IMG/VR virus record: IMGVR_UViG_3300028888_000058
Span: 39,060 to 103,059 of that record
Direction: 5' to 3' (one strand)
DNA: 64,000 nt
Source of the DNA: a virus
Lineage: Duplodnaviria; Heunggongvirae; Uroviricota; Caudoviricetes
Shown here: positions 40,301 to 56,759 of the stretch, piece after piece
Layout of the letters: the number at the start of each line of letters is the position of its first letter
Numbering within the stretch: position 1 is the first letter of the stretch
Translations under genes and position numbers: made by a program
Notes under the pieces: generated by a model
Database searches by the model: none
What the model saw: only the letters and a program-made list of their open reading frames with translations
Told to the model about the DNA's origin: nothing

Positions 40301-43300
40301 TAATGCTCCTGATTCACGTCCTGCTGTTGTATTCTATACTGATACATCTTCAGCAATACCTACTAAAAAGTTCTTAGGACAATTCGTATTAATGGATGAT
40401 AAGAAATCAGATCATATATTTGGCGAACGTTCTATTTATCTTTGGGGTGATGGTAATGATCCATTCTGTATGACAACAGAAGGTGCAGATACTCCAGTAA
40501 TTATAAATGGTAAGACTAAAAAAGGATATGACCAAGATGAATTCTGTGTTTGGGATAATAAACGTGTATTAAGAATTGAATGCGTACTTATTAACACTCC
40601 ATTAACATCATTCATGGATTTTAATGTACCTAATGACATTGTTATTGATAAAGACGGTAATACTGAAGATGATCAAACATTTACAAATGATCATGCCGCT
40701 TCAGATATTAAATATGAAACAGATCCTTCAACTGGAGAATTCATACTTGATGAAAATGGTAATAAGAAACCATTGAACTATTACTGGGAAGACTATTTTG
40801 AAATGATATTCCCTGATGAAGATGATATTTCTGAAGATGATGCTGCTGAGAATTTAAATAAATTTAGTGGTGTTCATAAGACTCCAGAACAAGCAGCAGA
40901 TCCAAATTATAAATGGCCAGAAGGAACATCTAAGTTCATTAAGAAAGCACAACCATGGATAGATTTCTTGAGATGGATCTGTTCAATAGGACAGCTTAAT
41001 AAAGATTCACAAGGAAACCCAATTATAAATGGCAATGTTTCTACAGCAGCATTAAATAAATTTAAATCTGAAGCACATGACCACTTAGATCTTTATAAGT
41101 TAGCTGCTTATTATATATTCTACATAAGATTTGGTCTTGTTGACTCTGTAGAACGTAATGCTCAATATAAAACATATGATGGATTACACTGGTTCTTAGA
41201 GCCATGGGATATGGATATCGCATTAGGTAATAAGAATACTGGTGGTCTTGCATTTGATCCTCCTATGGACCGTACAACAATGCTTGATGCTACATCACAG
41301 ACATATGCATATTCAGGAAGATCAAAAACTACTTCTAATGTTCTATGGGATTGCTTAGAAAAATGGGATTATTGGAGAGATGTAATTGTTCCTGAAACTG
41401 CACAAGCATTATATGAAGGTGGATTGACATACGATAAGATAACAGAAATGTTTGATAACAATTTTGCTAATAAATGGGCAGAATTAGTATATAATGAATC
41501 TGGTATGTATAAGTACGTAGAAAAAGCTCAGGATGCTACATGGCTTAACTGGTTACAAGGATCTCGTACTTCACACCGTCACTGGTGGATATCTACATCA
41601 ATGAACTATTATGATTCTAAATGGACTTGTGGACAGTTTAATTCATCAAGAATATATATGGCTGTTGATAAACCTCAAGGAACTGAAGCTATCATAACAG
41701 TTGTGCCTACATCTGAATCATATTTTAAATTGACACAGATGGATACTACATTAAATAGAGGATTATATAGAGCTACCAAATCTTCTCCTGCAAGATGGGA
41801 TGCTACAAACTGGTCATTCTCTACAAAAGACCCATCACACTTATTTGGTGCATTATTCATGGAGAAGATTGACTTGGATGTATTTGGACAAGGATTACAA
41901 GTATTATCATTCCAAAATGCAGTTGACCCAGTATTAGGAGCAACTATTAAAGAATTAAGTATAGGTAGTAGATTGCCTGAAGACTTAGAAAGTCCAAGTA
42001 GAACGCAATTCACTGGATGGATTCATAAGGTAGCTCCAAGTATAACAAACTCTTCATCTACAACTTCTGAAGATGATTCTGAAGGAGCACCAGATGCATT
42101 AGAAAACATTATAACATATAATATAACAGGACAACTTGGCCTTAAGGATGGTGATATAATAAAATCTAATAGAGCAAAACTAAAGAACATATATGCTATA
42201 GGTACTGGATTTACAACATTGACTTCTTCTGCATTAGGAAACGTATATGAAAACGTCCATTTGCCAGGAAGAACTTTAGAAAATACTGGATCTACTGTAA
42301 AAACAACACCTGGCGTTATTAGTATTAATGTTACTAATACATCATGGAAAAACATAACATTCTGGGAAACATCATATAACTCATCAGGTACTGAAAGAGT
42401 TCCTTATGAAATTAATGGGGAAGTACAGAGAGATGAGAATGGAGATATCATATATATAGAAAATCCTACTGTAGCTACATTTAAAAAGATGAATAGAATT
42501 CCTAAAGAATTTAAATCATTGACATTCAAAGGATCTACTGCTAATAATGTATGTACATTAGAATTTGTATTAGATTGGTTTAATTCTATTGAATATTATG
42601 TTAGTCAAGACAATCCTGAATTATCTGGAGATGCATTAGAACGTAAAGTACTTGAATATATTGGTAATAATTGCACCGCATCATTAGATAATATTAGATG
42701 GAACTATAATAAGTCATTTAATGATCCTGACTATAGACCAATAACATATAAAGATGTAGTAAGATTAGGATACCTAAACGGAATGCCTGATGAAAATGGA
42801 ATTGGCGTAAACTGGGGTACAAATTCATCATTAAAAGGATATGTTAAAATTGAAGGTGAGAATATGAAACCTGCGCAATTAACTGAATTATCTAACTTAT
42901 TTGGTGAAAATGTATTTACTTTAAGTAATATTAACTCTAACTTAGTTATTGACCAAGAAAGTAACTATGCTCAGATTTCAGTATCAGGAAACATACATAT
43001 AGAAACAGATACAACAACCGGTGAATCTATAATCGTTGCTAATGAAGGATCATTGATTAAATTTAAATGTACATCATTCTTACTTTCTTCTGAAAGTGTT
43101 GAAAATTATGTATGGACAATCAATGGAGCTGAAGGAAACACATTCGAAAATGCTCCTGATGGATTTACAAGAAATCTTATATTAGATCAAACAACAAAAC
43201 CTGAAAGATATACTATTACTATTACTGCAACAAAAATAGGTGATCAATCAATTAATTCATCAGTAATTGTATATATAGATCCTACAATAACTGCTCGTGA

Positions 43301-44505: not shown

Positions 44506-46659
44506 ATGGGAAAACATATTAAATTAACTCAAACAGTTGGGCAGGAAAATAACGTACCTGCTCAACTTATAACAAAACTATATACATTATATAGTAATCA
44601 ATTAAAAGGATTGGATTCATGGGACTGTAATGAAGACTCTATACAAGGAACATTTAAGACAGGATATACATATGATAAATATGTAGAAGCATTACATTCA
44701 TTCTTCAATAATCTTAATATTATATCTGAAGGATATTATGTATATTTTGAAGATCCTGTTGTAGAATCAATAATATTAAACCAATTAGTTAATGTAATAT
44801 ATCCAGAAAAACATTATGAAGGAGTTATTACAGGTTTAGAAGTAAATAATTCAGGTAATTCTGATTATTATGGATTTAGACGAATATTTAAAGGCAATAA
44901 TGAAATACAAACATTTGATGAGCTATCAAAACTAACAAATGTGAAAGCATTAGCAACAAGTGAATTTGCTAGTTCACAATCATTAACAAGCATAGATTTA
45001 ACAAATATTGAAACATTTGGAATTAATGCATTTGCATATTGTTCTAATTTAGAATTCTTTAATGGACAGAATTCAGAAAAAGGATCTTTACGTTTGCCTA
45101 ACCTTAAATCAAACGGTTTCTCTGGAGGAATCTTTCAATGGGAAAAGACAAATAATGTATGGAGAGGTCCTAAAGTAAAAAAGATATATGACTTAGGAAA
45201 CTGTACAGTCATACAAGATAGAATATTTTTACACTGTATTTCACTTGAATATATTGAAGACGGCATATTAGAACAAATTACACGTATTGGACATTATTCA
45301 TTTCAATACTGTGAAAACTTGATAATAAATGACTTAAAATTGCCTAATATAACAACTATAGGAAATGAAGCATTTCGCAATACACAAATAAAGAAAATAT
45401 CTGAATTGGGAAACTGTACGATATGTGAATACACATTTGAATACTGTGATAAATTAACATCAATATCTCCAGAAGCATTAGAAAATATAACAAAAATATA
45501 TAAAGGGGCATTTGCATATTGTACAAATTTGGTAATAGATGACTTAAGTCTACCACAATTAACAGAAATTAGTGAAGATGCATTTAGAGGATGTAAAATA
45601 AAAACAGTATCGAACTTAGGTAATGTAACAACAGTAACTGGATTTACAAATTGCACAACACTAACATCAGTATCAATTCCATTAAGTGCAAATAAATTAG
45701 GTCAAAGTGCGTTTATGGGATGTGTCAATCTAACAGGTGTCAATGATATCATAAATAGAATAACATATTTTGATACTGATTGTATGACAGGTATATTAAC
45801 ATTACCATCAATTATATACATAAAAGCTAATGTTTGTAGTTATAGACCATTTAAAGATTCAAATGTTAGATCAATGTATCTTCCTAACATAACACATACA
45901 AACAGTATTAGTGGATATGATACTCCAGGTGTTGGTAGATTAAATAGAACAGTAATGTGTGGATCAACAATGGATATCTATTATCTAAAAAATATTCGTA
46001 AAATAAATGGATGGCTATTTGGTGGTAAGTCATACGCCGACATATATGCAACGGAATGGGATGGAACCTTATATTATAATACAAACTATGAAGGTCTAGG
46101 AAGACGTAGAGAAAACAATAATTGGGTACAGGAATATAAAGGCGCGGTACCATTTGGAGAACGTGGGCAACGTATCGACAAGTGGGCAGCTAATGTACTT
46201 TGGGCAAATATAAAATATTTGGTCATAAATAATACAACACCACCAGAATATTGGCAATCAACATATCAATATGGAGGCAGTATATTTAGTAGTATATCAT
46301 TATATATGAAAGCTGAGAGCGGATCTAATGAAACTTTCCATTATTTGGTTGTACCTAGATCTGCAATTAATACATATTTAAACTGGGATGCAATCAATCC
46401 TGATTTAAGTTCACCAAATTTAGACAGTGAGTATAGACAAAAATTTACTGATATTACCAAGTTTACAAATGATGCTACTGAAAATAGAATAATAGCTTTA
46501 GAAAGCATGGGGCATTTTGCAACAAAAGCAGAATATGATGCTGCTCCAGATATGCCAGATGGAGTACATAGTAAAAATGAATATCTAATAGAAGAATACA
46601 TGGGATTATTACCAGGAGAGTCAATTAACTGGGATTCAACTCCAACTTGGGGAGTATAA
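44506..46659 (+). CDS. BspA-type leucine-rich-repeat protein, paralog 1; putative receptor-binding protein
   Basis: Shares an approximately 100-aa N-terminal domain with the next two genes. Repeats of the form AFxxCxNL...LPNIT. C-terminus IEEYMGLLPGESINWDSTPTWGV. Confidence 0.55.
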   Translation: MGKHIKLTQTVGQENNVPAQLITKLYTLYSNQLKGLDSWDCNEDSIQGTFKTGYTYDKYVEALHSFFNNLNIISEGYYVYFEDPVVESIILNQLVNVIYPEKHYEGVITGLEVNNSGNSDYYGFRRIFKGNNEIQTFDELSKLTNVKALATSEFASSQSLTSIDLTNIETFGINAFAYCSNLEFFNGQNSEKGSLRLPNLKSNGFSGGIFQWEKTNNVWRGPKVKKIYDLGNCTVIQDRIFLHCISLEYIEDGILEQITRIGHYSFQYCENLIINDLKLPNITTIGNEAFRNTQIKKISELGNCTICEYTFEYCDKLTSISPEALENITKIYKGAFAYCTNLVIDDLSLPQLTEISEDAFRGCKIKTVSNLGNVTTVTGFTNCTTLTSVSIPLSANKLGQSAFMGCVNLTGVNDIINRITYFDTDCMTGILTLPSIIYIKANVCSYRPFKDSNVRSMYLPNITHTNSISGYDTPGVGRLNRTVMCGSTMDIYYLKNIRKINGWLFGGKSYADIYATEWDGTLYYNTNYEGLGRRRENNNWVQEYKGAVPFGERGQRIDKWAANVLWANIKYLVINNTTPPEYWQSTYQYGGSIFSSISLYMKAESGSNETFHYLVVPRSAINTYLNWDAINPDLSSPNLDSEYRQKFTDITKFTNDATENRIIALESMGHFATKAEYDAAPDMPDGVHSKNEYLIEEYMGLLPGESINWDSTPTWGV

Positions 46660-46687
46660 TATAATAAAATTATAAAGTAAATAACGA

Positions 46688-48487
46688 ATGTCTAAAAAAC
46701 ATATTAAAGTTAATCAAATAAATGTTCAAGAAACTAATGTTCCTTCTGAATTAATTACCAAACTTTATAGATTAATTAAAAGTACTGAAGCTGGAAACGA
46801 AGTATGGGATGCTATGGATGAAGGCAAAATAGATACGGCATTAGTAGGATCATTTAAAACAAAAGGATATACATATGAAGAATATGTAGATAAAATAAAT
46901 CAATATTTTGATGGTACTTTAACTATAGAAGCTGAAGGATATTATATTTTATTTCAAGATGATTTTGTTTTAAATACTTTATTAGACAAAGGATTCGGTG
47001 ATGGTACAGGTATATCTACAGATGTAGCTAGAAATATTATGTTTAATCCATGGGATATGTTTAAATCAACTGAAATAGAATATTTTAATGAATTTAAATA
47101 TTTTTCTGATTTAAATAGTAGAAATACACAATCTAATAATCCTGGTAATAATAGAAGTTTTTGTTTTAGAGATTCAAATTTAAAATCAATAGACTTAAGT
47201 AATTTAACAGCTCCAGTACCTTATAATGCATTTAAAGGTTGTACATCATTAACTTCAATAGGTAGTTTATCAAAATGCAGTTATATTGGAGAATCTGCAT
47301 TTTCTGGTTGTACTTCATTAACTTCAATAGATTTATCAAATATTACATGTTTATATAAAGACTCTTTAAGACAAACAGGATTAGTTCTAACAAATGAAGA
47401 TTTACAAAATATATCTACATTTATTGGAAATCGTGATTCAGGCGTTTTTGGCGCGGGTAATTATGTAACATTATTAGACATTGAACTATTAGATTTACCA
47501 AATTGTACATATGTAGCAGATACTACTTTTACTAAACAAACAAATATAAAATATGTTAATTTAGAAAATTTAAACACACTATGTGGAAATAAAACATTTT
47601 ATGGATGTACACAATTAATTACAGCAAAATTAATTGGAACATTTATTGAAATAGATGGTGATTTTTCATATAATGGTAATGGTATGTTTGAAAGTTGCGT
47701 TAATTTAAGAGAAGTAGAATTACCAGTAAATTTATCAAATTTATCATATCATATATTTTATAATTGTACAAATTTAACTACAGTTAATTTTAGTGATTTT
47801 CAAGAAAATCTTACTATAATTGATGGAAATGCTTTTTATAAAACTAATTTTACACATAAAGTATTTTATTTACCACGTTGTATAAAATTTGGTGGTGTAT
47901 ATAATCATGGAAGAGGATCTAATTATGATGGATCTACTGCTCCATTTATAGGTATGATAGGTAATTATAGTTTTTATTTACCAAAAATTACTGAAATTCA
48001 TGATTCATATGCATCTAATAATTCAAGAGGAAATAGAGTATCATATTTTGGTGAAAGGATATATATGCCATATATAACATTATTTTCAAATAATGTTCAT
48101 AATCAACATCATGACCATTCAACTATTAAAACATTATATTTTAAAAAATTAAATAAAGTACAGGCTAGTACATTTGCAGGATTTACTGTAGATATACTTA
48201 TATTTAATAATGCAACACCTCCTCAACTTGAAATAATGAGTGATTGGGTAGATACTGGAGATGGTGATAATGGAATATGCTTATTTAATGAAGATATGTT
48301 TAGAACTACTATCATTAATGATGGTATTTATGTACCAGATTCTGCAGTAGAAACATATAAAGCTACTTCATATTTCTCAAGTGTTATAGATAAAATTAAA
48401 CCTTTAAGTATATGTCCACGAATTACTATTGAACAAGGCATGGGTGGTATGGCTGGACTAATAGAAGAATATATGAATGAAAAATAA
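46688..48487 (+). CDS. BspA-type LRR protein, paralog 2
   Basis: Conserved N-terminal domain NVPSELITKLY...GYTYEEYV...AEGYYILF. LRR-type repeats. Confidence 0.55.
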   Translation: MSKKHIKVNQINVQETNVPSELITKLYRLIKSTEAGNEVWDAMDEGKIDTALVGSFKTKGYTYEEYVDKINQYFDGTLTIEAEGYYILFQDDFVLNTLLDKGFGDGTGISTDVARNIMFNPWDMFKSTEIEYFNEFKYFSDLNSRNTQSNNPGNNRSFCFRDSNLKSIDLSNLTAPVPYNAFKGCTSLTSIGSLSKCSYIGESAFSGCTSLTSIDLSNITCLYKDSLRQTGLVLTNEDLQNISTFIGNRDSGVFGAGNYVTLLDIELLDLPNCTYVADTTFTKQTNIKYVNLENLNTLCGNKTFYGCTQLITAKLIGTFIEIDGDFSYNGNGMFESCVNLREVELPVNLSNLSYHIFYNCTNLTTVNFSDFQENLTIIDGNAFYKTNFTHKVFYLPRCIKFGGVYNHGRGSNYDGSTAPFIGMIGNYSFYLPKITEIHDSYASNNSRGNRVSYFGERIYMPYITLFSNNVHNQHHDHSTIKTLYFKKLNKVQASTFAGFTVDILIFNNATPPQLEIMSDWVDTGDGDNGICLFNEDMFRTTIINDGIYVPDSAVETYKATSYFSSVIDKIKPLSICPRITIEQGMGGMAGLIEEYMNEK

Positions 48488-48525
48488 ACATAAAACTAAA
48501 AAATAAAATTAAATAATATTTAATA

Positions 48526-48595
48526 GAAGAATATATGGGATTAGGTCCAAATGAAACAATTAACTGGGATTCAACTCCAACATGGTCAATATAAA
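48526..48595 (+). pseudogene. Orphan remnant of the paralog-1 C-terminus (IEEYMGLGPNETINWDSTPTWSI, then stop)
   Basis: About 85% nucleotide identity to 46590-46659. Confidence 0.5.
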
Positions 48596-48611
48596 TATAT
48601 GAACATATAAT

Positions 48612-49655
48612 ATGTCAACTTTACATATAAACGTAAATCAACAAGAAAGTATAATTGAATATAATGTTCCACCTTCATTGATAAACAAGTTATATAAATT
48701 AGTTAACAGGGAAAATAATGGTGAAACAATATTTGATAATAATACTAATATAATTGGAACAATCAATACTGAATATACTTATGAAGAATATATAAATATT
48801 ATCAAAAACAGATTCAACCAGTTACATATAAATGCAGATGGATATTATATATTATTTGAAGATGAAAATTCTAAACAAATATTATTTAATGCAATTAATT
48901 GGACTGAAGAAGGAATTACTGCAGAACAAGCAGCTAATATTAATTTAATTGCATCAAATACAAAAATTAGTGGAACTTCAATAATATATTTTAATGAATT
49001 TAAATATTTTACAAGTAATAGTGGTCTTACTGATTTATTTAAAAATTGCACATCATTAAAAGAAGTAACTATGCCACCAATTGTTGCATCTTGGGCTAGA
49101 GGATATTATGATCATAGCCCATTTTATAACTGCTCATCATTAACAAAAGTTAATTGGAATAATTGTACAATAACTGGAGGAGATAAATATAGAAAATATT
49201 TTGGATTATATAATAAATGCTCATCAATAAAATGGTATGATGGAATATTGCCTCCAGGATGTGATGAAATTAGTGAACACATGTTTAATAATAGTGGTGT
49301 TGAAAAAATAATAGCTCCAGAAGGTATTACATGTATGGGTGCTATTGTTGGTGCGACAAAATGTGTATATATTGAATTACCTACAACAGTTACAGAAATA
49401 GATGCACAACATTGGGGACGAAATATGAATGAAAGATCTGGTGGTACTGGACAAATAGTTTTGGCATGTAAAGCTATAACTCCGCCAACATTATTAAGGA
49501 CTGATGGATTTCATGATGCTGATACTACAATATATGTACCAGATGAATTAATATCCGAATATCAAACTGCTTGGAGTAACTTTCCTAGACTTTCTGGAAT
49601 ATATGGATTATCAGAATTACCACAAACATATAAAGATATGGGTACAATTAAATAA
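48612..49655 (+). CDS. BspA-type LRR protein, paralog 3 (shorter)
   Basis: Conserved N-terminal domain NVPPSLINKLY...EYTYEEYI...ADGYYILFED. Confidence 0.5.
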   Translation: MSTLHINVNQQESIIEYNVPPSLINKLYKLVNRENNGETIFDNNTNIIGTINTEYTYEEYINIIKNRFNQLHINADGYYILFEDENSKQILFNAINWTEEGITAEQAANINLIASNTKISGTSIIYFNEFKYFTSNSGLTDLFKNCTSLKEVTMPPIVASWARGYYDHSPFYNCSSLTKVNWNNCTITGGDKYRKYFGLYNKCSSIKWYDGILPPGCDEISEHMFNNSGVEKIIAPEGITCMGAIVGATKCVYIELPTTVTEIDAQHWGRNMNERSGGTGQIVLACKAITPPTLLRTDGFHDADTTIYVPDELISEYQTAWSNFPRLSGIYGLSELPQTYKDMGTIK

Positions 49656-49706: not shown

Positions 49707-49820
49707 TAAAAAATATTTATTTTTATTAAAATATGTATTTTTTAATATTAATTTAAAAAAAAGTATATTATTTTTAATTGTATTTGAAATATTATAACAA
49801 AAATATTGTAAACCAATAAT

Positions 49821-51548
49821 ATGACAGATAAACGTTGCTTGATTTATGAGACTCTTGGTAAAGTTTCAGATCTTGAAATCGTTGAAAGTAAAGGTAGCAA
49901 CGGTATGCGTCTTCATGGTGTATTTGGTGTTTGTGGTATAAAGAATCAAAATAATCGTGTTTATGATAAAGAAAATTATAAGCAGATGGTTGAGTCTTTA
50001 CAAAAAGTTATCAAAGAATCAGGTTGTCCTGGTGAATTGGAACACCCAAACTCAATGAATATTAATTTACAAAATGTATCTCACAAGATTGAATCTATTC
50101 AAATGAATGAAGATGGAACCATCACTGGTGATATCTTGCTTTTGAATACTCCAAGTGGAAAAATTGCTCAAGCAATTGTAGAAGGCGGTCTTCCATTGTA
50201 TATATCTTCAAGAGGTGCAGGTACTATCACTAATGAAGGTCGTGTAACGTTATCTACTATTAAGACTTACGATTTGGTCGGTACTCCAGGTTTTAGTCAA
50301 GCCAAACTTACTCTTAAAGAGAATCAAAAACTTGAATGTCTTAATGAAGGTTTAGAAGAAGGTAACAATGAAACTTGGGTAATCGTTGAAGGTTCTGATG
50401 ATCTTTTATCTGATGATGATGATAAGGATAAAGATAAAGAACCTAAAGAAGAACCTAAGGAAGATGATAAACCAAAGGATAAACCTAAGGAAGATGACAA
50501 GGATAAAGATGACTCTAAAGATAAGGATAATGATAAAGAAGATAACAAAAATAATGGCAATGATAATACCGATATGGAAAAACTTAGAGAAGCTGTTGAA
50601 GAGCTTGCTAAAAAAGTAGAATCTCTCCAAGCTGAATTGCATGTTGCAAAAGAAAGTTTAGAAGAGACTAGAGAATCAGTTAAGCCAGTTAATTACGAAG
50701 CTATTGAACAATGGGTAAAGGAAGAATTTGCTCCAGAATTCAAGCAAGAAGTATCTAATGAAATTAACGAAGATATTGATGAAAAGATTGATACTAAAGT
50801 TAATGAATCAATGGAAACTATTGCTACAGGCGTAGAAAATTGGATTAATGAAGAATATAATCCTGAAGTTCAAAAGTGGGTTAATGAAGAATTCGCTCCA
50901 ATGGTACAACAATGGATAGTTGAAGAATTTGCTCCAGAAGTTCAGAACTGGGTAGTTGAAGAATTTGCTCCAGAAGTTCAGAACTGGGTAGTTGAAGAAT
51001 TCTCACCTGAAGTACAAAATTGGATCGTAGAGGAATTCTCACCTGAAATTCAAGGATGGATTACTGAAGAATTTGCTCCAGTAGTAGAAGGATGGATTAC
51101 TGAAGAATTTGCTCCTGAACAATCACAAACTATTGAAAATAAAGTAAATGAGAATGTTTCTGCATTTATGGAATCTCAAAAGGCTGGTCGTTTAGAAGAA
51201 ATTGATAGTTTACTTGAATCAATTGCAAATGACGATAATGCATCAGTTAACAAAATTGTTGAAGAAGAAGGAAAGAACAATAAATATAAAGGAGTTTATG
51301 TTGTAGAAAACATGCCTGCTGAATATCGTCCTTCTTGGGAACTTCTTACAGAAGCTCGTCAACAAGAAATTATTAGAAGTTCTCGTATGTATGACTTCAT
51401 GAAGGAAGGTCAAATTGAGAAGTTCTGGGCTAACGTTGATTTCAATCAACAAAATCCTGTTTATGTAAATGAAGCTAAGGAAAATCCTATGGAAGCTTAT
51501 CAGAATTCAATTGTTGCAAAGATGAAAGCTCTTCGTAGAAATTGCTAA
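49821..51548 (+). CDS. Prohead protease (T4 gp21-like) fused to an acidic, repeat-containing scaffold-like domain
   Basis: PGELEHP matches gp21 GELNHP (catalytic His). YISSRGAGT matches gp21 GVSSRGLGS (catalytic Ser). DLVGTPGFS. C-terminal half contains a K/D/E low-complexity region and 9 tandem 12-aa repeats. Confidence 0.65.
   Translation: MTDKRCLIYETLGKVSDLEIVESKGSNGMRLHGVFGVCGIKNQNNRVYDKENYKQMVESLQKVIKESGCPGELEHPNSMNINLQNVSHKIESIQMNEDGTITGDILLLNTPSGKIAQAIVEGGLPLYISSRGAGTITNEGRVTLSTIKTYDLVGTPGFSQAKLTLKENQKLECLNEGLEEGNNETWVIVEGSDDLLSDDDDKDKDKEPKEEPKEDDKPKDKPKEDDKDKDDSKDKDNDKEDNKNNGNDNTDMEKLREAVEELAKKVESLQAELHVAKESLEETRESVKPVNYEAIEQWVKEEFAPEFKQEVSNEINEDIDEKIDTKVNESMETIATGVENWINEEYNPEVQKWVNEEFAPMVQQWIVEEFAPEVQNWVVEEFAPEVQNWVVEEFSPEVQNWIVEEFSPEIQGWITEEFAPVVEGWITEEFAPEQSQTIENKVNENVSAFMESQKAGRLEEIDSLLESIANDDNASVNKIVEEEGKNNKYKGVYVVENMPAEYRPSWELLTEARQQEIIRSSRMYDFMKEGQIEKFWANVDFNQQNPVYVNEAKENPMEAYQNSIVAKMKALRRNC
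50700..51135 (+). repeat. Nine tandem 36-bp (12-aa) coding repeats (xEEFAPEVQNWV) inside the scaffold domain
   Basis: Read directly from the translation. Confidence 0.6.
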
Positions 51549-51665
51549 ATTTAATAACTAATAAGGAAATTGCATATATTTTCTATTAGGAAAGAAAATA
51601 TTTATTTTTATATAAAATTAATTTATCTCAAAAGAGAATAACAAATAAATTTCAACTTAAATAAT

Positions 51666-53450
51666 ATGTTTAATGAACAAAATGGTGTACAGACATGGGA
51701 GAAGATGTTGAAAGAAAACTTCAATGTTACAGACCAGGAAAAACTTAACTGGGTGTCTCAGTACGCAGCTATTCATGAAATTCACGAATCTCAACTTGGA
51801 ATTAATGGTGGTCAAGTAGTTACTAACGCTACAACTTATCCAGGTGTTGGTCCTATCTATACTACTCCAATGAACACTACAGGTATGGGTAATATTGCTG
51901 CTCCAAGTCAATTAGATCCAATGAGCACAGCTCCATATAACCAAGCTAATCCAACAGGTTCATTCTGGGGTCAAACTCCAGGTTCAGGTGATATTCCTGT
52001 ATCAACATTACCAATGGCTCTTAACGTTGCATTGTTAACTATTGGTCTTGAATTAGTTCCAGTTATCCCTGCTAAGGGTCCTTGGGCTATGTTAACTTAC
52101 ATGGACTTCCCATATGCTGGTGGTAAGTTAGGTCGTGTAAACGAAACTTCATTCGATGGTAAGGGTGATCTTAATGAAAACAAACCAATCTATGTTAAGA
52201 TCAAGGGTCTTACACTTGCTCAGATCCAAACAATCCGTCAAGGTATGGAAGCTGCAACTCCAACAGTTAAAGCTGATGATACTGTAACTGTAGGTGGATT
52301 TGAAGGTAAGTTCATTTCATTAGGTCGTATGGATGCTTGCCCACTTGTAAAAGTTGTTAAGTGTTCAGATGCTAATCACTCAATCCGTGAAGAATTCGAC
52401 GCTGCTACTTCTGTAGTAATCGGTAGTGTTACTATCACTCTTACTGCTGCTAATGCTTCTACAGGTGTTCCTGCTCAAAAGGTTGAAGCTGACTTCGTAC
52501 AGACTTCTGTTGATTTAGTAGATGGTTTCGCAAACTTCTTCGATGGTTCTAAGAATTCAATGACACGTGCTCAGAATGAAACTGGTACAGGTAATGTAAT
52601 CGGTCTTCGTTTATTCAGCAAGTGGATCCAAATGGGTGCTTATGAAGTAACTGGTACTGTTACTCGTCAACAGTTACAAGATCTTCCATTATATGGCGTA
52701 GATGCTGTAGGTAAAGTTATGGAAGCTCTTCAAAACGAAATCACTCAACATATCAACCAACGTATCCTTGAAAGAGTATTCGCACTTGGTGTTACTAATG
52801 CTGCTCAACAAAAGGCTCGTCAGGGTGTTGATTTGAACTTGTGGATGGGTAAGACTGGTTCTACAATTTCTATGGCTCAAGCTTATGCTGGTGTACCTCA
52901 CTTCACAGATATCTACGGATATGATCACAAACCAACTTGGACAGGTATTAAGAACTCAGAAGTTAATACTTCTGCTGAAAATCTTTCTACACGTCAACGT
53001 CGTATCATGAGCCGTATCTTAGCTGCTGCTAACTTAATCCAATTGGTAGGTCGTCGTGGCCGTCCAACATGGATCGTTACTAACGGTAAGATTGCTTCTG
53101 CATTACAAGATGTATCTGGTTACGTTGTAGCTCCATTCTTGAACACAATGTCTCAAGCTAATACTCAGAACTTATACCACGCAGGTACTGTTGCTGGTCT
53201 CCAAGTTTATGTAGATCCTTACATGGATTGGAATGATACTCGTATCTGTATCGGTCGTAAGGGTACTGGTAACGAACCTGGTGTAATCTTTATGCCTTAT
53301 ATTCTTGCAGATACTATTAGTATTACTGCTGAAGGAACTATGGCTCCTAAGATGTTGGTTAACAGCCGTTATGCAATCGCTGAAGCTGGCTTCTTCCCAG
53401 AACTCGCATATTTCACAATGGTTGTTGATTCAGAGTTCGATATCATCTAA
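51666..53450 (+). CDS. Major capsid protein (T4 gp23-like)
   Basis: C-terminal VYVDPYMDWNDTRICIGRKGTGNEPGVIFMPYILA parallels gp23 VYIDQYAKQDYFTVGYKGPNEMDAGIYYAPYVAL. N-terminal IHEIHE|SQLGINGG resembles the gp23 propeptide junction LTE|AEIGG. GC-richer codons. Confidence 0.7.
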   Translation: MFNEQNGVQTWEKMLKENFNVTDQEKLNWVSQYAAIHEIHESQLGINGGQVVTNATTYPGVGPIYTTPMNTTGMGNIAAPSQLDPMSTAPYNQANPTGSFWGQTPGSGDIPVSTLPMALNVALLTIGLELVPVIPAKGPWAMLTYMDFPYAGGKLGRVNETSFDGKGDLNENKPIYVKIKGLTLAQIQTIRQGMEAATPTVKADDTVTVGGFEGKFISLGRMDACPLVKVVKCSDANHSIREEFDAATSVVIGSVTITLTAANASTGVPAQKVEADFVQTSVDLVDGFANFFDGSKNSMTRAQNETGTGNVIGLRLFSKWIQMGAYEVTGTVTRQQLQDLPLYGVDAVGKVMEALQNEITQHINQRILERVFALGVTNAAQQKARQGVDLNLWMGKTGSTISMAQAYAGVPHFTDIYGYDHKPTWTGIKNSEVNTSAENLSTRQRRIMSRILAAANLIQLVGRRGRPTWIVTNGKIASALQDVSGYVVAPFLNTMSQANTQNLYHAGTVAGLQVYVDPYMDWNDTRICIGRKGTGNEPGVIFMPYILADTISITAEGTMAPKMLVNSRYAIAEAGFFPELAYFTMVVDSEFDII

Positions 53451-53483: not shown

Positions 53484-53542
53484 TAAATCGATACTTGTGA
53501 AAGTATCAAGGGTAACCTTAGAGGTTACCCTTTTTTATTTTG
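53484..53542 (+). terminator. Rho-independent terminator (two hairpins plus T-run)
   Basis: gatacttgtgaaagtatc and agggtaaccttagaggttaccct followed by tttttattttg. Confidence 0.55.
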
Positions 53543-53702: not shown

Positions 53703-56700
53703 ATGGCAATTCCAGTACATTTGCAACAATTTAAAGCTGCAGGTATTTACCGTGTTGTATTTGACCATTCTACAATAATGAATGAAGATACACAGCTTCT
53801 TAGATTAGTTGTTGGTTACTCAGAAAAAGGACCTTTCAATGTTCCAGTATTCGTTCGTAACCCACAAGAATTTAAGTTGTTATTTGGTGACATATCTAAA
53901 AAGCTTGAAAAGCGTGGCATATACTTCCATCGTTTGGCTTTACAAATGCTTAAGGTAAGTCCTATTTTATGTCTTAACCTTAAAAAGTTTGATAATGAAA
54001 CAGTAGGTGCTGCTACAATCAGTACAGACTTTAACCCTAAATTCAATCCTATTGATGAGGTTAAGCTTAATATAGAGGATATATATGACACAACTCGTTT
54101 TTGGACATTAGATGCAGAACATTTAAATAATTTACGTTCAGTAGAAGGTGCATTGTTAGATCAATATATTAATATTTCTGCAACTAATATAAAAGCAAAT
54201 TCAGCAACATATTTTATACGTAAAGCATCAGGTTCAAAAGTTGCAGGATATAACATTACTGTAAACGATTGGTATTCTGATGAAGATATGCCTGAATTTA
54301 TGGAACCTTACAAAAATAACTTAATTTCTGACTTCTTTGCAGAAATTTACGTGTTCAAAGGAAAGTTCGAAGCAAAACAGATATTAGCTTCTGATACACT
54401 TAAAGATTATTTCATTATCACTAATGAACTTGATGATAATGGTAACCAAGTTCTTAAATTACGTGATAAAGTAATTAATCCATTTGGTGATTCAGTTGAT
54501 ACTCTTGACGCATTGTATAGAGATGAAACATCTAATGCATTAGGTCACTATATTGGATCATTAATACCTTACTTCAAGAATAAACAAGGTGCATATGCAT
54601 GTCTTAACGTTGTATTCAATAGTGATATTGATACTCATAACTTAATGATGTCATTCAATACTGATTTATTAGAAGAAGAATTGGCTGCTAACATTGATCT
54701 TTCAGGTCGTATGTTTATCCCAACAATTGAAAATCCTAATAAATTAAATTCATCATTAAATATTGATAAGATATATGCAGGTACTGCTACAACATCAGTA
54801 TTAGGTAATATTAATTCACCAGTTATTGCTGATTTGATTAAATTCCATACTGATGTATATGATCCTGAAACAAAGACTCCAGCACAAGATATCTTTGTTG
54901 GCAATACTCGTGTTGCAGGTACATTATATGTTAAGACAATTACTTCTAATCAAATTAAACTTTCTCAAGTTGGTACTGAACAAGAAGTTACAATGACATT
55001 CTTTAATGATGGTGAATCTAATAAGACAGTTGAAGCTGCTAAGAAATTAGGTGTTATTTATGATGAAGAAGGAAATCCTGTTGATGGCTTAGGAACATAT
55101 TGGAAAAATGGTAATGCATTTATTGAAGAAAGCAATCCATTAGCTGGTCCTGAAAAGGTTATTACTGCATTATCTCGTCTTGAAAATAAAGGTGCTGATG
55201 GTCAAATCTATACTGATATAGATGAAAACATGAAGCCATCATTTAAGACAGTTCAAATCAAGACTAATCTTACATACTTAAATACTAATACAGTTGGTGC
55301 TGATTCTGTTTATGGTTCTTCTGTTTCATTCATTGATTTCTGTGATGATAACTGGGAATGGAGAACTGACGTTGAAATAACTCCAGGTCTTCCACAAGCT
55401 GCATTAATTGGTACTGCTAAATATGATTCTTCATTGATTAACGTACTTCAAAAGGGTGATTGTATCTTAGCTAAAGATAATACTGTTGATTATAACGATA
55501 ATGGTGAAAATGACGATAATGATGGATTTGAAGATAATGTATATGTACAAGAAACAGGTACTAAGTTAGATGAAAATGGTAATTTCTTATATTATTATGT
55601 TCTTCTTTCTGCAGAGCCATTCTTATACGAAATATTAGATTCTGAAACTGGTTCAATTACTAACCAATCATTAGTTCGTATTGATGCTGCTCTTAACCAA
55701 GAAATCGGTACAATGAAACCTCAATATCTTGAAGGTTATACATACAAGAATGATCGTCCACTTGGAACTGATATGTATGCTAAAGTAAAATGGCAAGAAT
55801 TCATACTTTCTGCTATTACTGATTACAAGGGTCTTCGTACAGGTCTTTTGAATAAGGCTGAAATTGATTACCGTTATGTAATTGATACATTTGAATCATT
55901 CCCAGTTTCTAATCTTAAGAATACACTTTCTTACTTATGTAAAGAAAAACAATCTGCATTTGCAATTGGTAACTTCCCATCAGTACAATCATTTGTTAAG
56001 TGTCCATATACTTCATTTACTGATTCAAAGGGAGTATTCAATGTAGAATACGTTGTTAAAGGATATAACAAGAAGAAAGCTGCTGCTATAATGTTTAGTT
56101 TACCAACAGAATTAGACGGAGCATCATTCATCGCATTCTATACACCTCTTAAGTTTACTGATGGATATATTGATACTATAGTTCCTTCTGCAGGTCTTGT
56201 ATCTAACTTATTTATTGAAAAGTATATGTCACGTCAACCATACTACATTGTAGCTGGTCCTAATTATGGTAATATTTCTGCTGCAGGTCTTGTTGGTCCT
56301 GACTACAAATATTCTCAAGATGAACTTCAGATAATTGAACCATTTGGTGTAAACGTTATGGTTTATCGTCCAAACTTCGGTACATTCATTAACGCTAACC
56401 AAACTGCTAAGCAGACTCCAGTTTCTGCATTATCTAAGGTAAATGTTCGTGAATTATGCATATACTTACAGGATGAAATTGAAAAGGTTCTTCAACGTTA
56501 TCAATGGGAATTCAATAACCAACGTACACGTGATGCAATCCTTGATAAGGTTAATCAAATCTGTGCTGTAACTGCTGCTAATGGTGGTATACAAGCTTAC
56601 AGAAATATTATGGACGAATCTAATAATACTCCTGAAATTATTGATAATGAAATGGCTGTTATCTCTACTCACATTGAACCTGGTATGGGTTGTGGTAAGA

Positions 56701-56759
56701 TGGTACAAGAACTTCATTTATATAGAACAGGCCAGATGACTGCTAATATTATAGATTAA
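53703..56759 (+). CDS. Tail sheath protein (1018 aa)
   Basis: N-terminus AIPVHLQQFKAAGIYRVV...VVGYSEKGPFNVPVFVRNPQEFKLLFG matches the conserved sheath N-terminal pattern (PGVY..., GxxxKGPxNxPxLVxSxxEFxxxFG). Confidence 0.65.
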   Translation: MAIPVHLQQFKAAGIYRVVFDHSTIMNEDTQLLRLVVGYSEKGPFNVPVFVRNPQEFKLLFGDISKKLEKRGIYFHRLALQMLKVSPILCLNLKKFDNETVGAATISTDFNPKFNPIDEVKLNIEDIYDTTRFWTLDAEHLNNLRSVEGALLDQYINISATNIKANSATYFIRKASGSKVAGYNITVNDWYSDEDMPEFMEPYKNNLISDFFAEIYVFKGKFEAKQILASDTLKDYFIITNELDDNGNQVLKLRDKVINPFGDSVDTLDALYRDETSNALGHYIGSLIPYFKNKQGAYACLNVVFNSDIDTHNLMMSFNTDLLEEELAANIDLSGRMFIPTIENPNKLNSSLNIDKIYAGTATTSVLGNINSPVIADLIKFHTDVYDPETKTPAQDIFVGNTRVAGTLYVKTITSNQIKLSQVGTEQEVTMTFFNDGESNKTVEAAKKLGVIYDEEGNPVDGLGTYWKNGNAFIEESNPLAGPEKVITALSRLENKGADGQIYTDIDENMKPSFKTVQIKTNLTYLNTNTVGADSVYGSSVSFIDFCDDNWEWRTDVEITPGLPQAALIGTAKYDSSLINVLQKGDCILAKDNTVDYNDNGENDDNDGFEDNVYVQETGTKLDENGNFLYYYVLLSAEPFLYEILDSETGSITNQSLVRIDAALNQEIGTMKPQYLEGYTYKNDRPLGTDMYAKVKWQEFILSAITDYKGLRTGLLNKAEIDYRYVIDTFESFPVSNLKNTLSYLCKEKQSAFAIGNFPSVQSFVKCPYTSFTDSKGVFNVEYVVKGYNKKKAAAIMFSLPTELDGASFIAFYTPLKFTDGYIDTIVPSAGLVSNLFIEKYMSRQPYYIVAGPNYGNISAAGLVGPDYKYSQDELQIIEPFGVNVMVYRPNFGTFINANQTAKQTPVSALSKVNVRELCIYLQDEIEKVLQRYQWEFNNQRTRDAILDKVNQICAVTAANGGIQAYRNIMDESNNTPEIIDNEMAVISTHIEPGMGCGKMVQELHLYRTGQMTANIID

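What the first reader, a model, noticed from the sequence alone, without database searches (positions are those of the whole stretch)
49821..51548. Prohead protease fused to a scaffold-like acidic domain with nine tandem 12-aa repeats
The N-terminal roughly 180 aa align to T4 gp21 (GELEHP, ISSRGAGT, VGTPGFS). This continues without a stop into a D/K/E low-complexity linker, a coiled-coil-like segment and 9 repeats of xEEFAPEVQNWV (50700-51135). T4 keeps the protease (gp21) and the scaffold (gp22) as separate genes. A fused protease-scaffold is more like HK97-type arrangements and is notable in a T4-like context. Together with the MCP IHE|S junction, the protease specificity [IL]xE underpins the CTS interpretation.
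Basis: partly seen in the sequence, partly recalled or inferred. Interest (0 to 1): 0.6.

Follow-up and report, generated by a model that had tools for sequence, protein, structure and literature searches.

The report
Capsid protease fused to scaffold-like tail
A very large gut-type phage encodes its T4-type capsid-maturation protease in one gene with a long acidic, helical, repeat-bearing tail that probably acts as the capsid assembly scaffold; the arrangement is real and shared by a whole clade of huge phages, but has not been studied experimentally.

Summary

After the protease come a disordered D/K/E linker, a long helix, a 12-residue Trp/Pro repeat array and a conserved C-terminal domain with no known relatives. 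The array is 8 tandem units plus 1 detached copy, not 9 tandem.

The fusion is not a sequencing error. All 120 closest homologues are 529-589 aa, on contigs up to 467 kb. Cultured Tenacibaculum phages pT24 and PTm1, a 462-kb uncultured phage and Lak megaphage carry the same long form.

Calling the tail a scaffold is an inference from position directly upstream of the gp23-type capsid gene, acidity, helicity and a gp22-like density of [LIV]-x-E sites. No homology to gp22 was found.

The HK97 analogy is wrong. P2 gpO, lambda C/Nu3 and herpesvirus UL26/UL26.5 are the right comparisons.

New lead: a conserved ATAACAAA box precedes the gene start, the invariant internal Met252 and the capsid gene start, which suggests a nested scaffold product. 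Interest is moderate.

The parts
49716..49726 (+). TTTATTTTTAT element, a candidate promoter-type box ~95 nt upstream of the gene start
   Evidence: There are 9 copies in the window against 1.8 +/- 1.2 expected. Eight are on the + strand upstream of ORF starts, including the capsid (51601) and sheath (53600) genes. None lies inside the ORF.
49794..49805 (+). ATAACAAAAATA box, 27 nt upstream of the ATG of the protease-scaffold gene
   Evidence: It is exact in 4 of 7 relatives, with near-matches in the rest.
49821..51548 (+). Protease-scaffold ORF, 575 aa plus stop
   Evidence: PHROG phrog_207 'head maturation protease' matches at E = 6e-40 over residues 6-572.
49821..49850 (+). N-terminal decapeptide MTDKRCLIYE, a candidate self-removed activation peptide (cut after I-Y-E10)
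   Evidence: E10 is invariant and aligns with T4 gp21 E9 (L-I-E9|T). T4 gp21 is inferred from its crystal structure to remove nine N-terminal residues on activation (PMC9958956). Cleavage here is inferred.
49821..50321 (+). Peptidase S77 (T4 gp21-type) prohead serine protease domain, residues 1-167. Triad codons: His75 at 50043-50045, Ser129 at 50205-50207, Asp151 at 50271-50273
50313..50390 (+). Boundary region with three candidate self-cleavage sites: L-K-E167 (50313-50321), L-N-E176 (50340-50348) and I-V-E190 (50382-50390)
   Evidence: A [LIVM]-x-E lies 8-9 residues after the PGFSQA strand in nearly all diverse family members. LNE and IVE|G are conserved in the close clade. Model confidence collapses after residue 166. 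Cleavage is inferred.
50322..50573 (+). Acidic D/K/E low-complexity linker, residues 168-251, predicted disordered and hypervariable in length
   Evidence: Composition. Length variation in alignments. pLDDT below 50 for residues 167-249.
50542..50553 (+). Internal ATAACAAAAATA box, 32 nt upstream of ATG-252
   Evidence: The ATAACAAAAATA core is identical in all 7 diverged relatives, and the wider GATAACAAAAATAAT block is nearly so (two relatives differ in its last codon, one in its first). This includes the minority AAC codon in all 7 (AAC makes up 30% of Asn codons) and sits within the hypervariable linker. The site ranks in the top 5 of ~2,300 positions in 5 of 7 loci with a matrix trained only on the capsid-gene sites.
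50574..51548 (+). Candidate nested product starting at invariant Met252 (324 aa), co-terminal with the full-length protein
   Evidence: M252 is invariant. The upstream box is shared with the gene start and the capsid gene start. Three of 14 ATAACAAA sites precede a long-ORF ATG against 0.37 expected, P = 0.005. Expression is not shown.
50574..50678 (+). Long helix, residues 252-286, coiled-coil-like
   Evidence: Helix in both models. The segment is conserved.
50712..50747 (+). Detached repeat copy WVKEEFAPEFKQ, residues 298-309
   Evidence: W298/E301/E302/F303 are invariant.
50841..51128 (+). Eight tandem 12-residue units W-[IV]-x-E-E-[FY]-x-P-x-[VI]-Q-x, residues 341-436. Each carries a [IV]-x-E|E candidate cleavage site and one Pro
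   Evidence: Copy number is 5-11 in homologues. The array is modelled within helix 319-430, pLDDT 80-90. The hydrophobic pattern has a period of 4, i.e. one amphipathic face per unit.
51288..51545 (+). Conserved C-terminal domain, residues 490-575: M-P...W...Y-D-F...F-W...D-F plus a basic terminal helix (...KMKALRRNC). Candidate capsid- or core-binding module
   Evidence: pLDDT ~88-91 for residues 490-545. P499/F535/W536 are conserved across the diverse family, including pT24, PTm1 and LR756500. No Pfam or PDB relative was found. Binding function is inferred.
51638..51649 (+). ATAACAAATAAA box, 28 nt upstream of the capsid gene ATG
   Evidence: Conserved in 7 of 7 relatives at 27-30 nt from the ATG, within otherwise divergent intergenic DNA.
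51666..53450 (+). Major capsid protein, T4 gp23 type (594 aa), the presumed substrate and assembly partner
   Evidence: Pfam Gp23 E = 5.5e-29. It lies immediately downstream in all relatives examined. The N-terminal K-L-x-W-[VM]-S...I-H-E-I-H-E|S segment is conserved in relatives.

Best explanation
The gene encodes a bifunctional capsid-assembly polyprotein. Residues 1-167 are a T4 gp21-type (Peptidase S77, herpesvirus-assemblin fold) serine protease with a His75-Ser129-Asp151 triad.

A disordered acidic tether (168-251) joins the protease to a ~320-residue acidic, all-helical module. That module has four parts:
- a coiled-coil-like helix;
- an array of proline-punctuated amphipathic 12-residue Trp repeats;
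- further helices;
- a conserved compact C-terminal domain ending in a basic helix.

Proposed mechanism, in which every step beyond the protease identity and the architecture is inferred:
1. The helical module self-associates and binds the inside of the gp23-type shell through its C-terminal domain. It thereby serves as the internal scaffold or core and carries the protease into the procapsid.
2. After shell completion the protease activates itself by removing its N-terminal decapeptide after I-Y-E10.
3. It cuts itself free at L-K-E167, L-N-E176 or I-V-E190.
4. It chops the scaffold at the [IV]-x-E site present in every repeat into ~12-residue acidic peptides that leave the head, as T4 gp21 does to gp22. 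It also trims the capsid protein's N-terminal propeptide.

A conserved ATAACAAA box upstream of the invariant Met252 suggests that a protease-free 324-residue scaffold is additionally made by internal initiation. That would set a high scaffold-to-protease ratio, as in lambda C/Nu3 and herpesvirus UL26/UL26.5.
For: Protease identity (shown):
- Pfam S77 and S80 score above their curated cut-offs on the isolated domain.
- hhalign to T4 gp21 gives 96% probability, E = 2e-9.
- The triad aligns with T4 H85/S140/D168 and is invariant.

Fusion is genuine and conserved (shown):
- All 120 best homologues are 529-589 aa, on contigs up to 467 kb with the same gene order.
- pT24, PTm1, LR756500 and Lak-A1 carry the long form.
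- The C-terminal half alone retrieves 172 clusters at 50% identity. Of the 66 hits of at least 440 aa, 42 carry the protease His and Ser motifs.
- The short hits that were checked are contig-end fragments.

Scaffold role (inferred):
- The tail occupies the gene 22 position. No gene lies between it and the gp23-type capsid gene in any of the 10 relatives examined that have the capsid gene downstream. Phages with a short protease have a separate gene there: T4, PAU and PA5oct.
- Net charge of residues 181-575 is -57. The [LIV]-x-E density is 7.3 per 100 aa, against 7.4 in T4 gp22 and 1.1-1.5 in the capsid and sheath proteins. The observed 29 sites compare with 12.5 +/- 2.9 in composition-matched shuffles.
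- The half is all-helical, with a confident compact C-terminal domain.
- The domain order matches P2 gpO: N-terminal protease, middle region, C-terminal scaffold (PMC7552001).

Self-processing sites: conserved [LIVM]-x-E motifs at the N-terminus and at the domain boundary.

Nested start: invariant M252, the nearly invariant upstream nucleotide block and the shared ATAACAAA box. The candidate promoter element TTTATTTTTAT is absent inside the ORF, which favours a translational signal.
Against: - No sequence or profile similarity links the C-terminal half to T4 gp22, PAU gp152 or PA5oct gp330. It has no Pfam, PHROG-scaffold or PDB relative.
- The window covers only 64 kb of a genome that is probably over 400 kb, so a separate scaffold gene elsewhere cannot be excluded.
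- The [LIV]-x-E excess is inflated by the repeats, which are not independent. The cleavage specificity of this protease is unknown, and related giant-phage enzymes prefer A-x-E (PMC10052503).
- The ATAACAAA 8-mer is not enriched in the window overall: 14 found against 13.4 expected. The internal site scores only modestly with the capsid-gene-trained matrix and is outside the top 5 in 2 of 7 loci.
- The long continuous helix through a Pro-containing repeat is a model, not a fact.
Confidence: 0.6

Rival explanations
1. Targeting tether, not the main scaffold. The C-terminal half only delivers and regulates the protease. It would be a very long version of the C-terminal propeptides that localise other prohead proteases. 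The real scaffold would be a separate, unidentified gene or the capsid protein's own N-terminal propeptide.
For: - Related giant-phage proteases carry a self-removed C-terminal propeptide (SPN3US gp245, 64 residues; PMC10052503).
- No homology to any known scaffold was found.
- In Lak-A1 the long protease gene is not followed by the capsid gene.
- PTm1 has an uncharacterised 277-aa gene between the portal and the protease gene.
- Only 64 kb of the genome is visible.
Against: - About 400 residues is far more than a targeting peptide needs.
- The helical module, repeats and C-terminal domain are conserved across 172 clusters.
- No gene lies between this ORF and the capsid gene, whereas short-protease phages have one there.
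- The same repeat plus C-terminal module appears behind a non-protease N-terminal domain in one contig (P0150). This suggests it has a role of its own.
Confidence: 0.25
2. Retained internal head protein. After release from the protease, the helical repeat module stays in the mature head as an internal or ejected protein, as in the inner bodies of phiKZ-like phages, rather than being degraded and expelled.
For: - Giant phages package many internal proteins that are processed by the gp21-like protease (PMC5694885, PMC9026906).
- The conserved folded C-terminal domain could be a functional mature product.
Against: - The module is strongly acidic (net charge -57), which is unfavourable next to packed DNA.
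- A candidate cleavage site occurs every 12 residues.
- The architecture parallels known protease-scaffold fusions.
Confidence: 0.08
3. Artefact. A sequencing or assembly error, or a recoded stop, joins two separate genes (protease and scaffold).
For: None found.
Against: - The uninterrupted long form is found in 120 of 120 closest homologues from independent assemblies. It is also found in two cultured phage genomes and in two other megaphage lineages.
- The apparent short forms that were checked are contig-end fragments or chimeras.
Confidence: 0.01

Closest known systems
T4 gp21 (prohead protease, MEROPS/Pfam S77) together with T4 gp22 (prohead core scaffold)
   Same: - The protease domain is a homologue by profile, triad and fold.
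- Gene order is protease, scaffold position, gp23-type capsid gene.
- The tail is acidic and helical with a gp22-like density of [LIV]-x-E sites.
- The N-terminal activation site is conserved.
   Different: - One ORF here, against two genes in T4.
- The tail has no detectable homology to gp22.
- It carries a disordered D/K/E tether, a 12-residue Trp/Pro repeat array and a distinct C-terminal domain.
Tenacibaculum phage pT24 gp140 ('prohead core scaffold', 527 aa) and PTm1 ORF300 ('prohead core scaffolding protein and protease', 564 aa)
   Same: - They are the closest cultured-phage homologues, aligning end to end (32% identity over residues 10-573 for pT24).
- They share the fused architecture, the position directly upstream of the capsid gene, the W-x-x-x-E-F-A-P type motifs and the M-P...W...F-W C-terminal domain.
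   Different: - The motif occurs in only 2-3 scattered copies in pT24, or as a longer-period variant in PTm1, rather than as 8 tandem units.
- The acidic low-complexity stretch lies after, not before, the repeats.
- Their product names are the standard T4 gp21 label, not a recognition of the fusion.
Bacteriophage P2 gpO
   Same: One polypeptide with an N-terminal serine protease domain, a middle region and a C-terminal internal scaffolding domain. It cleaves itself and the capsid protein (PMC7552001).
   Different: - gpO is half the size (284 aa), from a small T=7 phage with an HK97-type capsid protein.
- It has no repeat array.
- No sequence comparison with gpO was run here.
Lambda C/Nu3 and herpesvirus UL26/UL26.5 (protease-scaffold gene with a nested, co-terminal scaffold gene)
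   Same: - The protease is at the N-terminus and the scaffold at the C-terminus of one frame.
- A possible internal start at invariant Met252 with a conserved upstream box would reproduce the nested design.
   Different: - Nested expression is only suggested here.
- The lambda protease belongs to a different family.
- The lambda and Mu single-gene statement is from PMC8508860. The UL26/UL26.5 details are from my general knowledge.
phiKZ gp175 / SPN3US gp245 (Peptidase S80 giant-phage prohead proteases)
   Same: - Distant homologues: Pfam S80 scores 29 bits against a cut-off of 23.4.
- They cut after Glu and self-remove a C-terminal extension (PMC10052503).
   Different: - Their extension is short (64 residues in gp245) and their specificity is A-x-E.
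- No gp22 counterpart has been confirmed in those phages (PMC5694885).

Membership tests
Peptidase S77 (T4 gp21 prohead protease) | Profile match above the curated family threshold | tested here: met
   Residues 1-180 score 41.9 bits against a cut-off of 27, E = 1e-10. The full-length scan missed it because of compositional bias. hhalign to T4 gp21 gives 96.3% probability, E = 2e-9.
Peptidase S77 (T4 gp21 prohead protease) | Catalytic His-Ser-Asp triad in register with T4 H85/S140/D168 | tested here: met
   H75/S129/D151 align and are invariant in 47 diverse family members. The triad composition is taken from PMC5694885.
Peptidase S77 (T4 gp21 prohead protease) | Herpesvirus-assemblin-like fold matching the gp21 crystal structure | tested here: met
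Peptidase S77 (T4 gp21 prohead protease) | Encoded in the head module next to a gp23-type major capsid gene | tested here: met
   Pfam Gp23 E = 5.5e-29 for the next gene. The same adjacency is seen in relatives.
Peptidase S77 (T4 gp21 prohead protease) | Cleaves head proteins and itself after Glu in a short motif (T4: L/I-x-E) | not testable with these tools
   Only conserved candidate sites can be shown: IYE10, LKE167, LNE176, IVE190 and one [IV]-x-E per repeat.
T4 gp22-type prohead core scaffold | Sequence or profile homology to gp22 or other stand-alone scaffolds of T4-like and jumbo phages | tested here: not met
   BLASTP E = 0.13 against T4 gp22. hhalign scores against T4 gp22, PAU gp152 and PA5oct gp330 lie within the range of shuffled controls. 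No scaffold PHROG matched. The targets were single sequences, so sensitivity was limited.
T4 gp22-type prohead core scaffold | Encoded between the protease and the major capsid gene; acidic, helical, rich in protease sites | tested here: met
   Position. Net charge -57 and 7.3 [LIV]-x-E sites per 100 aa against 7.4 in gp22. All-helical model.
T4 gp22-type prohead core scaffold | Present in procapsids, required for shell assembly, degraded and absent from mature heads | not testable with these tools
   This needs proteomics or genetics in a cultured relative.
Protease-scaffold fusion proteins (P2 gpO; lambda C/Nu3; herpesvirus UL26/UL26.5) | N-terminal maturation protease and C-terminal scaffold in one reading frame | tested here: inconclusive
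   The architecture is met. The scaffold function of the C-terminal half is inferred, not shown. The gpO domain map is from PMC7552001.
Protease-scaffold fusion proteins (P2 gpO; lambda C/Nu3; herpesvirus UL26/UL26.5) | Nested, co-terminal scaffold product from an internal start (lambda and herpesvirus type) | tested here: inconclusive
   Invariant M252, a nearly invariant upstream nucleotide block, and an ATAACAAA box shared with the gene start and the capsid gene start, P = 0.005. No expression data are available.
Protease-scaffold fusion proteins (P2 gpO; lambda C/Nu3; herpesvirus UL26/UL26.5) | C-terminal end of the scaffold binds the capsid protein | not testable with these tools
   A conserved compact C-terminal domain with a basic terminal helix exists. 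Binding was not tested.
   Here the scaffold-like part is fused to the protease, not to the capsid protein. The HK97 definition is from PMC10275583.

The most novel reading that the evidence does not exclude
The gene is a nested pair of the lambda C/Nu3 or herpesvirus UL26/UL26.5 type, operating in a T4-type megaphage. A conserved, non-Shine-Dalgarno ATAACAAA box would drive internal translation initiation at Met252. The phage would then make a little protease-scaffold and a lot of free scaffold from one frame. The proline-punctuated Trp repeat array, whose copy number varies from 5 to 11 between close relatives, would act as an adjustable-length spacer that helps set the dimensions of the very large capsid core. 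It would be diced into defined 12-residue peptides at maturation.
Probability: 0.2. Interest if true: 0.6.

Novelty: new variant of a known kind. Interest (0 to 1): 0.4.

Why it matters
How capsids holding 200-500 kb genomes are scaffolded is poorly understood. [quoted passage not shown]

This analysis points to a concrete candidate shared by a large clade that includes two cultured Tenacibaculum phages, a 462-kb uncultured phage and Lak megaphages. In these phages the scaffold would be the C-terminal two-thirds of the protease gene itself.

That makes the question directly testable in pT24 or PTm1. It would also extend the protease-scaffold fusion design, known from P2, lambda, Mu and herpesviruses, to the T4-type protease family.

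There are two practical consequences:
- These genes are annotated only as 'protease', so scaffolds are missed in huge-phage annotation.
- Full-length Pfam scans can even miss the protease because of the biased tail.

The conserved ATAACAAA box may also be a useful marker of highly expressed late genes and start sites in this low-GC, Shine-Dalgarno-free lineage.

Tried and rejected
- **Full-length Pfam scan.** It gave no protease hit. This was rejected as a false negative after the isolated domain scored above threshold.
- **Stand-alone scaffold homologues.** The short hits from the exhaustive C-terminal-half search looked like independent scaffold genes starting at the Met252 equivalent. P0127 and P0164 proved to be contig-end or chimeric fragments. 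Others have unrelated N-termini typical of chimeric assemblies.
- **Homology to known scaffolds.** BLASTP and hhalign against T4 gp22, gp67, gp68, PAU gp152, PA5oct gp330 and gp332, and PTm1 ORF299 gave nothing above shuffled controls.
- **Weak Pfam hits** (KilA-N, Trp_leader1, DUF445). All are below their cut-offs and are attributed to the repeats.
- **Giant-protein hits to the repeat region.** Most are unrelated Kelch-type or other repeats.
- **Sigma-70-type promoter scan.** It gave no signal above shuffles. No Shine-Dalgarno is visible at any gene start.
- **First AlphaFold run.** The shallow 24-sequence alignment was too poor for fold searching, with mean pLDDT 50.8. It was replaced by a 47-sequence diverse alignment.
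- **Megablast of the locus against deposited phages.** No match, so the window is not a deposited phage.
- **Literature searches** for a described gp21-gp22 or S77-scaffold fusion found none. The held library is incomplete.
Full report
**1. The observation**

The ORF at 49821..51548 (+ strand) is 575 codons with no internal stop. It contains the quoted motifs: GELEHP at 71-76, ISSRGAGT at 128-135 and VGTPGFS at 153-159.

Downstream of the motifs the protein has, in order:
- a D/K/E-rich stretch, 68% charged residues in 181-242;
- a helix starting at Met252;
- a repeat array.

Tandem Repeats Finder reports a 36-nt period array at 50861-51085 and a 108-nt super-period at 50841-51085. In the protein, Trp falls at exactly 12-residue spacing from W341 to W425. 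That gives eight truly tandem units (nt 50841-51128), plus one detached copy at W298-Q309 (nt 50712-50747).

The units are mostly old at the DNA level, with mean 70% nucleotide identity and one adjacent pair at 97%. All keep the W-[IV]-x-E-E-[FY]-x-P core. The array is maintained and is not a fresh slippage artefact.

**2. The N-terminal domain is a T4 gp21-type protease**

A full-length Pfam scan did not report the family. PHROGs did, over the whole length: phrog_207 'head maturation protease', E = 6e-40.

Residues 1-180 scanned alone gave:
- Pfam Peptidase_S77 at 41.9 bits against a curated cut-off of 27 (E = 1e-10);
- Peptidase_S80, the phiKZ gp175 family, at 29 bits against 23.4.

The first negative result was therefore a compositional-bias effect of the C-terminal half.

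Other evidence agrees:
- A local profile comparison with T4 gp21 gives 96.3% probability, E = 2e-9.
- Direct phmmer finds the gp21 crystal-structure sequence 5jbl at E = 0.0095.
- His75, Ser129 and Asp151 align with T4 His85, Ser140 and Asp168. They are invariant in 47 diverse relatives. PMC5694885 describes the gp21 triad as His-Ser-Asp.
- An AlphaFold model built on a diverse alignment has pLDDT above 90 for residues 30-165.

Membership in the S77 family is met on every feature testable here.

**3. The fusion is real and is a clade trait**

The 120 best metagenomic homologues are all 529-589 aa, and some lie on contigs of 405-467 kb.

A 467-kb contig shows the same gene order as the window: giant protein, two ~350-aa proteins, this gene, Gp23-type capsid protein, long sheath, tube. 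Five further relatives also have the capsid gene immediately downstream, and one is from a pig-gut metagenome.

Among deposited phages:
- Tenacibaculum phages pT24 (527 aa) and PTm1 (564 aa) have the same long gene directly upstream of the capsid gene.
- The 462-kb uncultured phage LR756500 has portal, a 632-aa fused protease and the capsid gene in that order.
- Lak-A1 has a 584-aa form.
- Several 500-660-aa UniProt viral entries labelled 'prohead core protein serine protease' align end to end with the model.

By contrast, T4, Sphingomonas phage PAU and Pseudomonas phage PA5oct have a 210-250-aa protease followed by a separate gene.

An exhaustive search with only residues 252-575 found 172 clusters at 50% identity. 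Of the 66 hits of at least 440 aa, 42 carry the protease His and Ser motifs. Apparent stand-alone forms that I checked are contig-end fragments or chimeras. The 'hidden stop' refutation therefore fails.

The megablast search shows that the window itself is not a deposited phage.

**4. Anatomy of the C-terminal two-thirds**

The improved model has mean pLDDT 72.6 and gives:
- a confidently non-ordered stretch at 167-249;
- helices at 252-286 and 292-312;
- one long helix, 319-430, through the repeats (pLDDT 80-90), and another at 432-470;
- a compact domain at about 490-545 (pLDDT 88-91), followed by a terminal helix at 556-574.

The linker is hypervariable in length between relatives.

Each repeat unit places W1, [IV]2, F6 and [VI]10 on one helical face and E4, E5 and E9 on the other, with one Pro per unit. 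From general knowledge, this resembles proline-punctuated amphipathic helix repeats. The continuous helix in the model should not be over-read.

Copy number ranges from 5 to 11 in close relatives through in-frame gain and loss of whole units. More distant relatives have scattered copies (pT24), longer-period variants (PTm1, P0128) or different helical repeats (LR756500).

The C-terminal domain (M-P...W...Y-D-F...F-W...D-F, then a basic helix such as KMKALRRNC) is conserved across the family, with P499, F535 and W536 invariant or nearly so. It has no Pfam, PDB-sequence or fold relative.

**5. Is it a scaffold?**

This is an inference, not a homology assignment. BLASTP and profile comparisons with T4 gp22, PAU gp152 and PA5oct gp330 give nothing above shuffled controls. 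No scaffold PHROG matches.

In favour:
- The tail sits exactly where gene 22 sits, with nothing between it and the capsid gene.
- It is strongly acidic, with net charge -57 over residues 181-575, and helical.
- Its density of [LIV]-x-E motifs is 7.3 per 100 aa. That equals T4 gp22 (7.4) and is five-fold above the capsid and sheath proteins (1.1-1.5). The 29 observed sites compare with 12.5 +/- 2.9 in composition-matched shuffles. The repeats make these sites non-independent.
- T4 gp21 degrades gp22 to small peptides that leave the head (PMC5694885, PMC9958956). Here every repeat carries one [IV]-x-E|E site, which would yield ~12-residue acidic peptides.
- P2 gpO provides a characterised precedent for the domain order: N-terminal protease, middle region, C-terminal scaffold (PMC7552001).

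The main rival is that the tail is only a long targeting or regulatory extension and the real scaffold lies elsewhere in a genome of which I see 64 kb.

**6. Self-processing**

Three sets of conserved candidate sites fit a T4-like rule:
- **I-Y-E10|T** aligns with T4 L-I-E9|T. [quoted passage not shown]
- **A [LIVM]-x-E 8-9 residues after the PGFSQA strand** (L-K-E167 here) occurs in almost all diverse members. It sits exactly where model confidence collapses.
- **L-N-E176 and I-V-E190|G** are conserved in the close clade.

Cleavage itself is not shown, and related giant-phage enzymes prefer A-x-E (PMC10052503).

**7. A possible nested scaffold gene**

Met252 is invariant, immediately after the hypervariable linker.

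In a codon-aware alignment of seven genes at roughly 65-78% protein identity, the 15-nt block GAT-AAC-AAA-AAT-AAT is nearly invariant. It ends 27 nt before ATG-252.
- The inner 12 nt, ATAACAAAAATA, are identical in all seven genes. Two genes differ in the block's last codon and one in its first.
- All seven keep the minority AAC codon, which makes up 30% of Asn codons.
- Gene-wide synonymous codon identity is 0.65.

The same core, ATAACAAA[A/T]A, lies:
- 27 nt before the gene's own ATG, exact in 4 of 7 relatives and near-matching in the rest;
- 27-30 nt before the capsid gene ATG in 7 of 7 relatives, within otherwise divergent intergenic DNA.

A matrix trained only on the capsid-gene sites ranks the internal site in the top five of ~2,300 positions in 5 of 7 loci.

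The 8-mer is not enriched in the window overall, with 14 found against 13.4 expected. However, 3 of the 14 copies are followed 27-32 nt later by an ATG opening a long ORF. These are exactly the three sites above. The expectation is 0.37, binomial P = 0.005.

A different element, TTTATTTTTAT, is enriched, with 9 copies against 1.8 +/- 1.2 expected. It lies 40-105 nt upstream of many gene starts, including this gene, the capsid gene and the sheath gene. It is absent inside the ORF.

The simplest reading is therefore promoter-like element, then ATAACAAA box in the leader, then ATG, with the internal box acting at the translational level. This suggests, but does not prove, a lambda C/Nu3 or herpesvirus UL26/UL26.5-style nested scaffold product of 324 aa.

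**8. Comparison with what is known, and novelty**

The HK97 comparison is wrong. In HK97 the scaffold is a domain of the capsid protein (PMC10275583).

Protease-scaffold single genes are known in P2, lambda and Mu (PMC7552001, PMC8508860) and in herpesviruses. For the T4-type S77 protease family I found no description of such a fusion in the searchable literature. [quoted passage not shown]

The long genes are, however, already in public databases, labelled with the standard gp21 name. I therefore rate this as a new variant of a known kind. The protease is ordinary, the fusion is a lineage-wide and unremarked trait, and the repeat array and possible nested start are the parts worth following. 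Interest: 0.4.

Noticed in passing
window 2644, 7240, 16244, 20823, 34060, 49716, 51601, 53600 (+ strand); 18000 (- strand): The 11-mer TTTATTTTTAT occurs 9 times against 1.8 +/- 1.2 expected, and 0 of 100 shuffles reach 9. Eight copies are on the + strand, at least seven of them 16-105 nt upstream of ORF starts. It is a candidate promoter-type element for this phage.
   Followed up: partly
window 44506-49655: Three consecutive paralogous BspA-type leucine-rich-repeat proteins (717, 599 and 347 aa) share a ~100-aa N-terminal module (...NVP..LI.KLY...GYY..FED...). Pfam LRR_5 matched the 599- and 347-aa members, and PHROGs links the 717- and 599-aa members. They lie directly upstream of the head genes and may be fibre or decoration proteins.
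   Followed up: partly
window 46580-46675 and 48515-48610: A 96-nt direct repeat at 78% identity. The first copy encodes the C-terminal tail of the 717-aa LRR protein (...LIEEYMGLLPGESINWDSTPTWGV*). The second copy encodes the same tail (YLIEEYMGLGPNETINWDSTPTWSI*) but lies after the stop of the 599-aa paralogue and in another frame. That paralogue itself ends ...LIEEYMNEK*. The second copy may be an orphaned or frame-shifted C-terminal tail.
   Followed up: partly
P0150 (contig L011 43-1695): A 550-aa metagenomic protein carries the same Trp-repeat plus C-terminal domain module behind a ~330-aa non-protease N-terminal region. An in-frame stop lies just upstream of its start. It comes from a single low-coverage 3.5-kb contig, so a chimera is not excluded.
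   Followed up: partly
P0177 (1452 aa) and P0213 (1043 aa): Two large proteins with P/Q/W/Y-rich N-termini contain 12-residue arrays, W-[LM]-[DN]-E-x-F-A-P-A-R-P-x, that closely resemble the phage repeat unit W-[IV]-x-E-E-F-A-P-E-V-Q-x. Their origin and any relationship are unknown.
   Followed up: no
window 51666-51800 (capsid protein N-terminus): The capsid propeptide segment E-K-L-N-W-V-S-Q-Y-A-A-I-H-E-I-H-E|S is conserved in PTm1, LR756500 and the 467-kb relative. Its N-W-V motif echoes the scaffold repeat Q-N-W-V-V-E-E-F. This may hint at helix-helix pairing between the propeptide and the repeats.
   Followed up: no
window 53703-56759: The tail sheath protein is unusually long at 1018 aa (T4 gp18 is 659 aa). 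Only the C-terminal ~300 residues match sheath families, and the relative in the 467-kb contig is 1047 aa.
   Followed up: no
window 37395-44501: A giant 2368-aa ORF lies upstream of the LRR genes. It matches only PHROG 14959 (unknown function) over residues 1212-1499, and a 2288-aa counterpart is syntenic in the 467-kb contig.
   Followed up: no
window 53508-53532; whole window: A strong terminator-like hairpin (11-bp stem followed by a T-run) lies just after the capsid gene. The window is 28% G+C, has no tRNA genes, and shows no Shine-Dalgarno sequences at gene starts.
   Followed up: no
window 49821-51548 (method note): A full-length Pfam scan returned no protease family at E <= 0.1, while the isolated 180-aa domain scored well above the curated cut-off. 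Biased or repetitive tails can mask real domains in routine annotation of huge-phage genes.
   Followed up: yes
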